A DNA stretch of 64,000 nt. It comes from Paraspadella gotoi. Taxonomy: Eukaryota > Animalia > Chaetognatha. This document shows positions 11,757-59,914 of the stretch, piece by piece; the stretch's first letter is position 1, and every line of letters starts with the position of its first letter. The DNA is taken from the NCBI GenBank assembly GCA_051294375.1, contig CM119267.1:9853458-9917457 (forward strand), given 5' to 3'. The translations under genes were made by a program, and so were the position numbers. The notes under the pieces were generated by a model. It ran no database searches and had not been told where the DNA came from. It saw only the letters and a program-made list of their open reading frames with translations.

Positions 11757-12220
11757 GTTTTTTTTTTTGCTTTTGCTAGACGTGAATTCCGTTTCGTTAA
11801 ATTATTTTACCATGGGAACGATCAAAAAATTAAATCCGACTTGAAAAAATAAATAAAGCATCGTATCGAGCACAATGCTGTTGATCTGTATTGATGAAAC
11901 AAAATTGGAAATAATTCGAATAAGCTAATTAAAACATTAGTTGGGCGTCTGTTAAAAATGGAAAACCAGAAATCGATTTATGAAAAAAAAAATAAAGCAT
12001 TAACATTGAGGTTTCATGATCTGCCATGAATAAAACTTAGTACATTTTAATGCTAACAACTTTATTATCTCTGGAATACTTACACGCTTCGAAAAGATTA
12101 GCAAGAAAAATGCGTTAAAAATTGAGTGGGTTACAATACCTGGAATCCAGTTTAACAACTAATTGGCTAGTACTTGTGAAAATAAATCACAAATATTTAC
12201 ATTTTGGGAATACGAAGAAC

Positions 12221-15200
12221 TTAATTACCATATCCATTACCATAAGCTCTCTCCGTCTCCTGCGAAAAAACGCCCCTTCCATGTCCGTAATCCATGACTC
12301 TGGGGTGACTGGCGGGCTCGGCCTCGGCCTGCATCCCGGGGATTTCCGGTTTGACGTCCTGGGCGTTCCAATCGCCGCCGGGTTCGCCTCCCCAGTGGCC
12401 GTCCCCGTTCTCGCCGCCGTCGTACTCCCTCGCGCGCATCATCTCCTCCTGGTCCATCATCTCGTTCATCTCTTGCTGCATGCGAAGTCGTCGGGCTTCG
12501 GCCTCCGGGTCGGCGTCGGCGTCGGCCGGTTCTGTCTTCACTTCCGGCCGATCGCGCCTCTCCCGGGAACGGCTCCGACGGCGTTTCCGGTCGCGAGAAC
12601 GGCTCCGCTTCCTCTTGCGATCCCGACTGCGACTCCTCTTGCGGTCGCGATCACGATCGCGGTCCTTCTTACCGCCGTCCTCGGTCGGGGGCGCTACTGG
12701 CGTCCCGTCCTCGTTCATTTCGATCTTCGTGACTTCGACCTCGGTTCCGTCCTCGTTTCTACCCGCGCGATCCTTGGAACGAGATCGTCGTCGTCGATCG
12801 CGTTCTCGACTTCCGCCGCGATCCCTATCTCGCGCCCCGCGTTCCCGGCCACGTTCGCGGTCCCTGTCGCGGTCGCGCCGTTCTCGAGATCTGGAACGTC
12901 GGCGTTCGAGGGGTGGTCGGTCCCGTGGTCGATCGCGACCTCGATCCCGATCGCGCATATCGTCGTGTATCGGGTGAAACTCTTCGCGACCTAAAAAAGA
13001 AAAAAAACGAGATAATAGAAACATACGTACTTAAAACAAAGTTCTTGGTAATTTTTTTTTTTTGCTGTTTACCTGAATATTTGGTGCAGATCTCCGGCGG
13101 TCCTTTGCGTGTACCGCCGAGGCCGCCACCCAACCTCCGTGGAAGCCATCCTTTGACCGTTCTCGCTCTCTCCACATCCACCAAAACTCGACGCCCGTCT
13201 ATTTTCTTACCATCCGCGTGTTTGTAGGCAGCTGGGAAGCGAGGAGGCGATAACAATACCAGTTATTGCGGAAGTTAAGTCGGTTTCCGCGAGATGATCA
13301 CCCAGGACGAATTTTAAATAAAAATACTTGAACTTACCGCACGAGAGAGAGAGAAAGGGAGAGAGAAAAGGGAGAGAAAGAGAAAAGGGAGGGAGAGAGA
13401 GAAAAGGGAGGGAGAGAGGAAAAGGGAGGGAGAGAGAGAAAAGGGAGGGAGAGAGAGAAAAGGAGGGAGAGAGAGAAAGGAGGGAGAGAGAGAAAAAAAG
13501 GGAGAAGAGAGAAAGGAGAGAGGGGGGGGGGGGAGAGGAGAGAGAGAGAGGAGGAGAGTAGAGAGAGAGAGAGAGAGAGAGAGAGACTATCTTTATATGT
13601 ATTAGACAATTCAACTCATGGTATCAAAGAAGAGCGCTCTCCACCGCTTTTCAAAAGCCGATTCACATAACCTTCCTGGTCTACGGAATTCTCTCTTTGC
13701 CAGAAGGGGGGGGCACCGTATTTTTTCTTCATTAGCAGGAAAAGAGTATAAAGCTATAACACTTTTTTGCCTAGACCCTAGCAACCACAACTAAACTGAC
13801 TTTGTTCCAAAAGCTTTTTAACGATATCTCACCTATATCGAAGATGGATTTCAACAGCAGATTTTTTAAAAGTTTTTGTTTGTTTGTATTTTGGGTTTGA
13901 TGGTGAAGCGAAGTGAGTTTGTGTCGCAATCCACAAAAACCCGTTGACAACCTTACATTATTCTCACCCATTATTTGGTCTTAATTCTTTTTTATATTAG
14001 CTGTCGGACTCAGCATGAAACTTACCAAAAAATGACCGATTTACAAATAAGAGTTTCAATAATATCTTGTTATAATTTTTTTTAAAAAATTTAAATTTAA
14101 AAAGTTAAAACTTTAAAAAATCAAATATATTTGAAGAAAAAAAAATATTTATCTGCATATGAACCATACTTATCTGCCTTACCATCTCCGAAATACAAAC
14201 CTACCAAACTCGAGAGAGCTGCTGATTCTTTGAAAAGCCTTTAAATCGGCCTTAACGATCATCAGTGTTTGCCATTTCTGTCACAAGATCAACAAAGAGT
14301 TGCAGGTTAATCATGTCAAATAAAAAGTTTGAGCCTAGGAAAGACCCAACGAATAAATATTTAACAATGTTTACCTGGCAACTTACCATGACCTACATTC
14401 AACTACATACAATAACATTCACAATCATCGGACCCCCGGATAGAAAACAAAAAAATAATTTGAAATTGAAACCTAGAAAACCATTTGTAACCTCCAAACG
14501 GGCAAAACAAATGTCAACGAAAAAGGCCTTAAACTTATAAATCGGACACCTTTACTGTTAAGTGTTGCTTTGTCATTGAATTTTAAAAATTTCCGAAATT
14601 TGAAATCATAAGTTTACGTAGTTGATTTTACTGCGTATGATGTATGGGCACCTTTTACACAATACTCGTTTTTTGATTTCAAAACTTTTCATATATGGAA
14701 AGGTCTACTGCGTATCTTTTTTGGTTTAGGTCCAAATTCGACACTTCCGACACTCTTCAGAGGGTCACATTATTCGAGACACCACTTGTTTATGTAAATC
14801 GAAACTTCAGACCCGTTACTTATCATTATAATTTATATGGCCTACATATTTTTTTTATCATGATTTGAACATAGATCGATCCGTGGGTCCGATCAATAAG
14901 CAGAGGTAAGCAATTAAAGAACCATCGACTTACAGTGCATGTCCCGCTCGTGCTCATACTCGATGAAGGCGTAGCCCCTGGGCTTGCCAGAGTTGGCGTC
15001 GTTGACCATTCGAATCCTCTTGATGGGACCGTAGGTCTCGAACTCACGACGAAGCTTGGACTCGGACGAGTCGTAGTTGATTCGTCCCACGAAGAGAGTC
15101 TTAAAAGGGTCGCCGCTGGCGTTGGTGTCCGTGTGGGGATCCCAAAGAGCCAAGTCCTTGAGAAGAAGAGGGAAAGACCCGGAATAAACTACTACGAATG

Positions 15201-15590
15201 ATATTAATAGGGGAGAATAAATTAAAAAAAATCACCTGCTCCAACTTGTACTCGTTGGCTTCGGCTTTCTCCTTTCGTTTCCTCTCGAGTCGCTCCTCGC
15301 GAGTCTCCGATCGAGTCGGGTCAGGGGTGTCGGCGGGATCCTCGAAATTAGCCAAAAACGCACCGACTCCATGGTATGGGTCTCGTCGTTTTTCGTGGGT
15401 TAGCTTACCGACTGCGAATTAAGAAGATTAAAAAAGCGCATAAAACAATATATTATTAAAATTCCAGCATCATTCAGGCCATATCGGTTACTAGAAGTAA
15501 ATTGGAGGAGTACTTACCTGGTGGTCGATAAGGAATGGGATCGCGAGGAGCGAACAAAGCGAGGAGGTTCGGGGGCAAAAACGCCGTCAT
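12221..15590 (-). CDS. SNRNP70: U1 snRNP 70-kDa protein
   Basis: Starts [33 protein letters not shown]...[58 protein letters not shown]-rich tail. Five exons, with a 1.7-kb intron at 13232-14933. Confidence 0.97.
13340..13590. repeat. GA-rich tract (CU-rich on the transcribed strand) in the SNRNP70 intron
   Basis: About 250 nt of almost pure purines on the + strand. Confidence 0.9.
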
Positions 15591-58711: not shown

Positions 58712-58847
58712 AAAAAAATTGTTATTTCGTCTAATCGTTCTACCAACGAAAAGAAAGATTTACAAACAATTTTAATATAATATAATTTTAATCTTATAAG
58801 CTAAGAAGTTTAGATCAATAAATCACTATCACAATCTACGAGGGGGT

Positions 58848-59768
58848 TTAATTACGCCACGAAAGCCTGATTATGGCTCTTCTTAGACCGTTGTGCTCAG
58901 TCCACGACGTCTCTGTCTCAAGCTTTCCATTTTTCTTAACGAGTTCGATAAATGTATCCACGCCTCCTCCTACCCCAAAGTAATGTTCCTTGGCAGCGAC
59001 GAGGGCGACGCCATCTTGGGCCAAGAAATGAAGGACGGCATCTAAAAAATTTTCGTTTTCCTTTGGGTCGTAAATGGTTTCGGAGGAGAGGACGAGATCG
59101 AACTTGTCCTTCGAGTTTCGAATGAGTTCTCTCCAGTCGCCAGAATAAAAACGACATTTTTTTTCCGCGTCGCCTTCGTTGAGAACGACGTTGGGCATCG
59201 TGAATCCCCGAATCACTTCGACGTTGAAGTCCTGAAAGTGTGCCTCCAGTGCGCCGCCGCGACATAGCGCCCATATGCCGGGCAATCCTGCCCCGCAGCC
59301 GAGTTCGATAACGCGCTTACCCGTCCAGCCGAATGGCTTTAAATCGCAGGCAAGGTGCTTAACGAGATCCAGCGCGCACTCCCACACTTTTAAGCCACCC
59401 TCGTAAACTCGAGGAACCAAATCCGAGCCTCTGTCGGCGGCTTCGAGGAAACCGCCTCGAGGCTGTAAGTCTTCCGGCTCATCGACGTAAGCGCGGATGC
59501 GCGCTTCGACCAGGGCGGGATGGAGACATCGGAGTTCGATTGGTTCGTCATTTGTGTTTCGGCCGCAGTTGACCGTTTCGATCTCCGCATCGTTCAAAAT
59601 TTCTGGAAACATTTTCGCTAACTTAAATTCACGAAATTTACTCGCGGAACATTTGCTATCCTTCCGACGTTTAGCCTTTCGTTCAATAACGTTTTCATTG
59701 ACTTCTTGACTTTTGATTGTGTCTGGTTGTTTGTTATCAAAAATAAAGTTAAATGCAAACCCCGACAT
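58848..59768 (-). CDS. METTL18: Histidine protein methyltransferase 1 homolog, intronless
   Basis: SDLVPRVYEGGLKVWECALDL, GKRVIELGCGAGLPG, HFQDFN, DLVLSSETIY, AAKEHYFGVGGG. Likely start MSGFAFNF at 59768; the ORF extends to ATG 59810. Confidence 0.93.
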   Translation of the reverse strand: MSGFAFNFIFDNKQPDTIKSQEVNENVIERKAKRRKDSKCSASKFREFKLAKMFPEILNDAEIETVNCGRNTNDEPIELRCLHPALVEARIRAYVDEPEDLQPRGGFLEAADRGSDLVPRVYEGGLKVWECALDLVKHLACDLKPFGWTGKRVIELGCGAGLPGIWALCRGGALEAHFQDFNVEVIRGFTMPNVVLNEGDAEKKCRFYSGDWRELIRNSKDKFDLVLSSETIYDPKENENFLDAVLHFLAQDGVALVAAKEHYFGVGGGVDTFIELVKKNGKLETETSWTEHNGLRRAIIRLSWRN

Positions 59769-59914
59769 AATAAAACTCTCGATCTGGGGCGTTGAATCTA
59801 ACCGATTCATAAAAAAAATAATTTTATTAGTTTCAAGAACAAAACATTTTTAAGCAATAAATAACTAATTAACAAACAAAGCATTCAAAACTAAGAAATT
59901 TCACATTCGTCTTT

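What the first reader, a model, noticed from the sequence alone, without database searches (positions are those of the whole stretch)
11757..59799. Splice-acceptor-like sites just upstream of every start codon in the window
Seen, on the minus strand with AG-to-ATG distance in nt: CRTAP-like tatttag (1), sarcoglycan ttttgttacaag (2), NDOR1 cattttag (7), zinc finger ttttccttctag (9), CTSD ttattttttag (13), MDN1 ctattttcag (15), METTL18 cccag (15) or gttag (29), YME1L1 cgtctag (19), SNRNP70 caatag (27), PAQR ctttattag (32), LIG1 gattag (35), MRGBP aattttcag (39), BTB cttttacag (51). Most follow a U-rich tract like the cis-intron acceptors here. The ~100-nt spacers have no convincing donor or room for an upstream exon. 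Inference: these are trans-splice acceptors giving very short, often A-rich 5' UTRs. Caveat: an AG alone is common by chance; the LIG1, SNRNP70 and YME1L1 sites are the weakest.
Basis: partly seen in the sequence, partly recalled or inferred. Interest (0 to 1): 0.8.

Follow-up and report, generated by a model that had tools for sequence, protein, structure and literature searches.

The report
Arrow-worm spliced-leader acceptors in gene cluster
In what is likely an arrow-worm genome, thirteen same-strand genes each have a splice-acceptor-like site just before the start codon, and RNA shows one of them joined to the tail of the known arrow-worm leader sequence, so the rest are likely leader-splicing sites that would cut shared transcripts into single messages, a process already described for this phylum.

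Summary
All 13 AG motifs are present at the stated distances. An acceptor model trained on the window's 45 introns finds a good AG within 60 nt of 13 of 13 start codons, against 59 of 122 spacer windows and 3 of 1000 shuffles.

RNA decides one site. The MRGBP contig of run X1 leaves the genome exactly after the AG at 48007 and carries 16 non-genomic bases identical to the 3' end of the published chaetognath SL2 leader. The NDOR1 contig starts exactly after its AG, and the upstream MRGBP contig ends exactly on that AG. At five to six other sites the contigs run straight through; this is inconclusive. CTSD could not be read, and three sites were not examined.

Corrections: spacers are 96-3713 nt, not about 100. 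Only 2 of 13 leaders are strongly A-rich. Six spacers hold plausible donors. BTB's AG has two upstream ATGs.

The scan noted a similar untested rotifer case earlier. Interest is low.

The parts
48007..48008 (-). MRGBP trans-splice acceptor AG (shown by RNA); ATG at 47967
   Evidence: the 1221-nt contig ends at 48006 with 16 loose bases that read TTTCAATTTGTTTAAA in sense, the 3' 16 nt of SL2 in Table 3 of PMC2481426. The genomic bases there differ, and the window has no match closer than 2 mismatches.
46443..46444 (-). NDOR1 acceptor AG; likely also the 3' end of MRGBP RNA; ATG at 46435
   Evidence: the NDOR1 contig begins at 46442 and the MRGBP contig ends at 46443, with no overlap. No leader letters seen. 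No donor and no AWTAAA in the 493-nt stop-to-AG stretch.
44463..44464 (-). CTSD predicted acceptor AG; ATG at 44449
   Evidence: Highest model score, 2.59. RNA undecidable: the contig's first 31 nt fall in a stretch the tool skipped as a repeat.
59798..59799 (-). METTL18 predicted acceptor AG (29 nt; preferred to 59784); ATG at 59768
   Evidence: Score 1.14 against 0.54. The RNA contig runs colinear through it.
58011..58012 (-). LIG1 claimed acceptor AG (weak; 58026 scores higher); ATG at 57975
   Evidence: 0.33 against 0.80 (position of the alternative). The contig runs colinear through it.
53122..53123 (-). PAQR predicted acceptor AG; ATG at 53089
   Evidence: Score 0.60. The contig has at least 157 nt beyond the first donor, so it passes this AG if colinear. 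Donor-like sites lie 101 and 126 nt upstream.
50676..50677 (-). BTB predicted acceptor AG, with two upstream ATGs; main ATG at 50624
   Evidence: Score 2.09; ATGs at +3 and +11; contig colinear over 48050-50940.
39852..39853 (-). MDN1 predicted acceptor AG; ATG at 39836
   Evidence: Score 1.94. By length sum, the 17,979-nt contig crosses this spacer unspliced (inferred).
24238..24239 (-). CRTAP-like predicted acceptor AG; ATG at 24236
   Evidence: Score 0.74; 96-nt spacer without donor; crossed by the same contig by length sum (inferred).
22678..22679 (-). Sarcoglycan predicted acceptor AG; ATG at 22675
   Evidence: Score 1.04. 247 of the 279 spacer bases are a dispersed repeat. No RNA laid here.
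21140..21141 (-). Zinc-finger gene predicted acceptor AG; ATG at 21130
   Evidence: Score 2.56, but donor-like sites lie 86 and 109 nt upstream, at typical intron length. No RNA laid here.
15618..15619 (-). SNRNP70 claimed acceptor AG (15651 scores higher); ATG at 15590
   Evidence: 0.84 against 1.48 (position of the alternative); 3713-nt spacer. No RNA laid here.
11776..11777 (-). YME1L1 claimed acceptor AG (U-poor); ATG at 11756
   Evidence: Score 0.71; U fraction 0.26; donors 308 and 364 nt upstream. No RNA laid here.
22955..53089 (-). Likely polycistronic core PAQR-BTB-MRGBP-NDOR1-CTSD-MDN1-CRTAP
   Evidence: RNA contigs abut, nearly abut or cross these spacers: gaps of 43 nt before MRGBP, 0 nt before NDOR1 and about 83 nt or more before CTSD; CTSD-MDN1-CRTAP on one contig by length sum. 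A contig across two genes does not show a single transcript.
100..63282 (-). Run of 14 co-oriented genes from DUS2 to YME1L1 (DUS2 start not found in the window)
   Evidence: no opposite-strand gene found among the ORFs scanned.

Best explanation
These AGs are likely spliced-leader trans-splice acceptors in a likely chaetognath (arrow-worm) gene cluster, with the leader seen in RNA at MRGBP and predicted at most of the other twelve genes, and the core of the cluster is likely transcribed as operons. Mechanism: Pol II reads through several head-to-tail housekeeping genes (inferred). In each spacer a U-rich tract plus AG has no matching cis donor (shown for 7 of 13 spacers by the donor scan). 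The spliceosome would join the capped 36-nt leader, which ends in AAA, to the base after the AG (join shown at MRGBP for the last 16 nt; cap and full length taken from the literature). This gives each downstream gene its own capped mRNA with a short UTR. At MRGBP-NDOR1 the upstream RNA likely ends at the downstream acceptor itself, as in Ciona operons without intercistronic DNA (inferred from two abutting contigs).
For: 16 of 16 bases match the SL2 3' end, at exactly AG+1. The contig stops where the published SL2 variants start to differ, position -17. X1 is spliced RNA: 12 distinct introns in the window's genes were among the joints shown, 11 GT-AG and 1 GC-AG. NDOR1 and MRGBP contigs abut at the AG. 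Acceptor enrichment is 13 of 13, against 59 of 122, 45 of 119 and 3 of 1000 shuffles. All 14 genes lie on one strand, with spacers down to 96, 100 and 146 nt. Contigs cross the DUS2-METTL18-LIG1 spacers with no gap and, by length sum, CTSD-MDN1-CRTAP (17,934 of 17,979 nt explained), so no upstream non-coding exon is spliced in on those paths. In P. gotoi 10,197 of 21,072 genes are trans-spliced and 18% lie in operons (PMC12460157).
Against: Leader letters were seen at 1 of 13 sites only, in one contig of one run. A contig break at AG+1 also falls, by length sum, at a probable cis acceptor of DUS2 (63282), so the NDOR1 break alone is not proof. BTB's AG leaves two upstream ATGs. Six spacers hold plausible donors. 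Ten of 13 spacers exceed 250 nt and could hold promoters. Four sites (CRTAP aside: sarcoglycan, zinc finger, SNRNP70, YME1L1) had no RNA laid.
Confidence: 0.7

Rival explanations
1. The genes are trans-spliced at these AGs but are monocistronic: each has its own promoter in the spacer or in the upstream 3' UTR and a short outron, and the colinear contigs reflect read-through or overlapping UTR and outron.
For: Most trans-spliced P. gotoi genes are not in operons: about half are trans-spliced but only 18% operonic. Ten of 13 spacers exceed 250 nt, one is 3713 nt. The tool warns that a contig across two genes shows no single transcript.
Against: Spacers of 96, 100 and 146 nt must also hold the upstream 3' UTR. 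The MRGBP contig reaches the NDOR1 AG and the BTB contig ends 43 nt before the MRGBP AG. The sarcoglycan spacer is 247 of 279 nt repeat.
Confidence: 0.15
2. Only a minority of the genes (MRGBP, NDOR1, perhaps CTSD) take a leader; the others have ordinary colinear 5' UTRs or a cis-spliced non-coding first exon, and their AGs are cis acceptors or by-products of U-rich spacers.
For: Colinear contigs at five to six sites. Donors at intron-like distance before the zinc-finger AG (86, 109 nt) and the PAQR AG (101, 126 nt). Upstream ATGs at BTB. U-poor SNRNP70 and YME1L1 sites. About half of random spacer windows pass the same threshold.
Against: 13 of 13 passing is unlikely at a base rate of 0.48 (p 1.6e-4) and in shuffles (3 of 1000). 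Seven spacers have no donor. The RNA-proven MRGBP site scores only 0.70, so a modest score does not exclude use.
Confidence: 0.13
3. The AGs are chance features of AT-rich spacers and the 16 loose bases are an assembly artefact.
For: One contig, one run. An AG lies in 116 of 122 control windows. The first weight-matrix model was weak.
Against: An exact 16-nt match to a published leader at exactly an AG boundary, absent from the window.
Confidence: 0.02

Closest known systems
Chaetognath SL trans-splicing and operons in Spadella cephaloptera and Flaccisagitta enflata (PMC2481426; PMC2566580)
   Same: Same leader tail (SL2 form, ending in AAA). Head-to-tail housekeeping genes. Their RP S14-PCNA operon has only three bases between the poly(A) site and the next acceptor, much like MRGBP-NDOR1 here.
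   Different: Different genes and a much longer co-oriented run (14 genes, over 62 kb). Species of the window not determined.
Paraspadella gotoi genome-wide operons (PMC12460157)
   Same: About half of the genes trans-spliced, 18% in operons, enriched for housekeeping functions, no operon-specific leader.
   Different: Their longest operon has nine genes under a rule of less than 250 bp between genes. This run has 14 co-oriented genes, but only 3 of 13 stop-to-ATG spacers are under 250 nt (UTRs not subtracted). Whether this locus is in their operon table could not be seen: the spreadsheet is too large to read.
Ciona intestinalis operons without intercistronic DNA, and C. elegans SL1-type operons (PMC1488885)
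   Same: The upstream mRNA 3' end coincides with the downstream acceptor AG, and in Ciona usually lacks AATAAA; this fits the MRGBP-NDOR1 boundary (abutting contigs, no AWTAAA).
   Different: Unrelated leader sequence. Here only one boundary looks like this and no poly(A) tail was seen; the BTB-MRGBP boundary leaves up to 43 nt.

Membership tests
SL trans-spliced genes (chaetognath SL2 form) | Non-genomic leader joined at the base after an unpaired AG | tested here: met
   MRGBP only: 16 loose bases at 48006, unlike the genomic bases and absent from the window.
SL trans-spliced genes (chaetognath SL2 form) | Leader identical to a known chaetognath SL | tested here: met
   16 of 16 bases match the SL2.0 3' end in Table 3 of PMC2481426; the 5' 20 nt of the leader were not seen.
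SL trans-spliced genes (chaetognath SL2 form) | Same leader on several unrelated mRNAs of this locus | tested here: inconclusive
   Seen on 1 of the 7 start sites inside the stretches laid; NDOR1 has a break without letters, CTSD is unreadable, four run through.
SL trans-spliced genes (chaetognath SL2 form) | Acceptor resembles cis 3' splice sites and lacks a cis donor | tested here: inconclusive
   Acceptor-like in 13 of 13; donor-free in 7 of 13 spacers.
SL trans-spliced genes (chaetognath SL2 form) | SL RNA gene elsewhere in the genome (5S cluster in S. cephaloptera) | not testable with these tools
   No genome is held; Rfam found nothing in the window.
SL-resolved eukaryotic operon | Co-oriented, closely spaced genes | tested here: met
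   14 genes on one strand; spacers 96-984 nt plus one of 3713 nt; 3 of 13 under 250 nt stop-to-ATG.
SL-resolved eukaryotic operon | Downstream cistrons are trans-spliced | tested here: inconclusive
   Shown for MRGBP, indirect for NDOR1, predicted for the rest.
SL-resolved eukaryotic operon | Polycistronic precursor from a single promoter | tested here: inconclusive
   Contigs cross several spacers, but contigs are not single molecules; no start-site data.
Operon without intercistronic DNA (Ciona type, SL1 type) | Upstream poly(A) site coincides with the downstream acceptor | tested here: inconclusive
   The MRGBP contig ends on the G of the NDOR1 AG; no poly(A) letters seen; a heterozygous insertion at that base would give the same picture.
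Chaetognatha (origin of the window) | Phylum-specific leader and animal gene set | tested here: met
   Leader match; the paper finds no similarity of these leaders to those of other phyla. NDOR1 has only 47-53% identity to named animals among the 120 hits listed, none a chaetognath, so there is no protein-level confirmation.

The most novel reading that the evidence does not exclude
All 14 genes form one leader-resolved polycistronic unit of more than 60 kb, longer than the nine-gene maximum reported for a chaetognath. [quoted passage not shown]
Probability: 0.2. Interest if true: 0.45.

Novelty: new member of a known kind. Interest (0 to 1): 0.2.

Why it matters
The phenomenon is published for this phylum, so the finding mainly shows that raw sequence alone can reveal trans-splicing. 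What it adds is a base-level map of candidate acceptors in one long cluster, one of them proven. It also gives a testable boundary, MRGBP-NDOR1, where upstream 3'-end formation and downstream leader addition appear to use the same AG. If that holds, chaetognaths share with Ciona the unresolved problem of how one precursor yields both mRNAs.

Tried and rejected
1. No whole genome is held, so there was no genome-wide acceptor model, no SL RNA gene search and no extension of the gene run.

2. The run search listed 3 runs, none on record as RNA; one (X1) holds the stretch. X1 proved to be spliced RNA.

3. Two layings covered 39900-59899 and 44150-51150 only. Six of the 13 sites (MDN1, CRTAP, sarcoglycan, zinc finger, SNRNP70, YME1L1) lay outside. 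In one search only 6 of 305 loose ends and 15 of 75 joints were shown, 6 of 8 loose ends.

4. The position-weight acceptor model discriminated poorly. The mean-based controls gave windows without an AG a score of -9, which inflates the contrast; I rely on the count-based, non-overlapping controls.

5. My first LIG1 exon chain broke frame; an added 67-nt intron restored it.

6. A metagenome scan with the closest NDOR1 relative P0001 returned 9 loci with partial, spread-out matches (25-76% identity), none its own contig; I did not examine them further.

7. Supplement searches: six gene names in 3 PDF files of PMC12460157, no hits; leader and operon terms, one irrelevant passage; six terms in 3 files of PMC2481426, only U1A. 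The P. gotoi spreadsheet, which may list this locus, was too large to read.

8. Rfam found 0 matches in the window. I saw no DUS2 N-terminal frame among the 28 ORFs in 63283-64000, by eye only.

9. Other trans-splicing taxa (nematodes, tunicates, rotifers) were set aside because of the leader match.
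Full report
WHAT THE WINDOW IS. The window holds 14 animal genes, all on the minus strand: DUS2, METTL18, LIG1, PAQR, a BTB gene, MRGBP, NDOR1, CTSD, MDN1, a CRTAP-like gene, a sarcoglycan, a zinc-finger gene, SNRNP70 and YME1L1. Pfam families fit these labels, and NDOR1 is named by homologues. 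The link of the 11756 ATG to YME1L1 rests on two predicted introns and a recalled motif, because its 5' pieces had no Pfam hit. Eighteen further ORFs gave no credible family. I annotated 45 introns of 58-2507 nt. With them, 12 genes read from ATG to a single stop; DUS2 lacks its start and YME1L1 was built only in its 5' part. Twelve of these introns are seen as joints in RNA. No genome is held, and the species was not determined.

THE OBSERVATION. All quoted AG motifs are present at the quoted distances. A bare AG means little, since 116 of 122 control windows hold one. A position-weight model was weak: 7 of 13 claimed sites reached the 90th decoy percentile and 5 scored below zero. A second, logistic model (AUC 0.874 leaving one gene out; built after the first) picks the claimed AG as the best within 60 nt for 11 of 13 genes. 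It finds an AG at or above the lower quartile of true acceptors before 13 of 13 start codons, against 59 of 122 spacer windows, 45 of 119 intron windows and 3 of 1000 dinucleotide shuffles. The set is therefore real, while single picks for LIG1 and SNRNP70 are doubtful.

Spacers are 96-984 nt plus one of 3713 nt; 3 of 13 are under 150. Six of 13 hold donor-like sites, those before the zinc-finger and PAQR AGs at typical intron distance. Only CTSD and YME1L1 have strongly A-rich leaders. BTB's AG is followed by two upstream ATGs.

RNA EVIDENCE. One public run, X1, holds the stretch; its contigs are spliced. The 1221-nt MRGBP contig aligns up to 48006, the first base after the claimed AG, and then carries 16 non-genomic bases that read TTTCAATTTGTTTAAA in sense (lengths add up). 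These are the last 16 bases of the chaetognath SL2 leader in Table 3 of PMC2481426, and the published SL2 variants begin to differ at the next base upstream. The window has no match closer than two mismatches. This shows trans-splicing at one site and places the window, most likely, in Chaetognatha.

THE NDOR1 BOUNDARY. The NDOR1 contig starts at 46442 and the MRGBP contig ends at 46443, with no overlap. Elsewhere these contigs keep about 30 bases of overlap into a branch. The simplest reading is a leader entering at AG+1 and MRGBP RNA ending or diverging at the same AG. There is no AWTAAA in the 493 nt after the MRGBP stop. This is inference: no leader or poly(A) letters were seen, and a heterozygous insertion at that base would look the same. 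A break at AG+1 also falls, by length sum, at a probable cis acceptor of DUS2.

RESULTS AGAINST OR INCONCLUSIVE. Contigs run colinearly through the METTL18, LIG1 and BTB AGs, probably through PAQR, and by length sum through MDN1 and CRTAP (17,934 of 17,979 nt explained by spliced CTSD, MDN1 and CRTAP with unspliced spacers). This argues against cis-spliced upstream exons on those paths and fits a shared precursor. It does not show a leader, and it is also what untouched 5' UTRs would give; the tool states that contigs show presence, not absence. CTSD is unreadable because the contig's first 31 nt fall in a skipped repeat.

MECHANISM. Most likely (0.7), Pol II reads through several genes, and the spliceosome adds the capped leader at each unpaired U-rich AG, releasing single mRNAs with UTRs of about 37-87 nt. 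Shown: the acceptor signal as a set, and the leader join at MRGBP. Inferred: use of the other sites, the polycistronic precursor and the 3' end at NDOR1's AG. Rivals: trans-spliced but monocistronic genes (0.15); only a few genes trans-spliced (0.13); artefact (0.02).

WHAT IS KNOWN. PMC2481426 (passages; section 12 in full; three supplement files searched) reports the leaders and an operon with three bases between poly(A) site and acceptor. PMC2566580 (passages) places the SL genes in the 5S cluster. PMC12460157 (passages including the trans-splicing results and methods; outline; three supplement PDFs searched; spreadsheet unreadable) reports 10,197 of 21,072 genes trans-spliced, 18% in operons and a longest operon of nine genes. 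PMC1488885 (passages) describes Ciona operons without intercistronic DNA. Three literature searches listed no paper on this locus, but the unread spreadsheet may contain it. The scan had no note on this genome and one untested rotifer case.

VERDICT. It is an instance of a process already described for the phylum. Novelty: new member of a known kind. Interest 0.2.

Noticed in passing
window 50933-50940: In run X1 the BTB-side and PAQR-side contigs both leave the genome here into inverted termini (TAAGGCGTAGT...), overlapping by 8 bases: likely a transposon insertion with an 8-bp target duplication that the window lacks, inside the PAQR-BTB spacer. An 8-bp duplication is typical of hAT elements (recalled).
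   Followed up: partly
window 9678-10289: The same terminal motif brackets about 610 bp in a YME1L1 intron (one exact copy, one with a mismatch), with an internal 132-nt inverted repeat: likely a copy of that element.
   Followed up: partly
window 22724-22944: A dispersed repeat, also at about 2228-2506 and 61540-61771, fills most of the CRTAP-sarcoglycan spacer and ends about 45 nt before the acceptor AG.
   Followed up: partly
window 44319-44398: The first CTSD intron is a GC-AG intron, seen as a joint in RNA.
   Followed up: yes
window 24333-35445: MDN1 (5054 aa) has a single 339-nt intron and an 11-kb last exon; GC falls from about 0.48 to 0.32 along the gene.
   Followed up: no
window 100-1863: The 3' half of YME1L1 changes frame several times without intron-like gaps (overlapping ORFs; motifs recognised from recall). 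Assembly errors or a decayed copy; not tested.
   Followed up: no
window 63282-63283: By length sum the 3569-nt DUS2-METTL18-LIG1 contig starts exactly after the AG of the first DUS2 exon found in the window. Probably a cis acceptor with more than one upstream path, but a leader on a shortened DUS2 is not excluded.
   Followed up: partly
window 50625-50675: Two upstream ATGs before BTB: a three-codon ORF and an out-of-frame ORF that overlaps the main start (and sequence). They could damp translation if this AG is used.
   Followed up: no
window about 63330-63283 and 60575-60520: Two DUS2 acceptors are preceded by a similar stretch of about 30 nt (seen); possibly a short repeat remnant.
   Followed up: no
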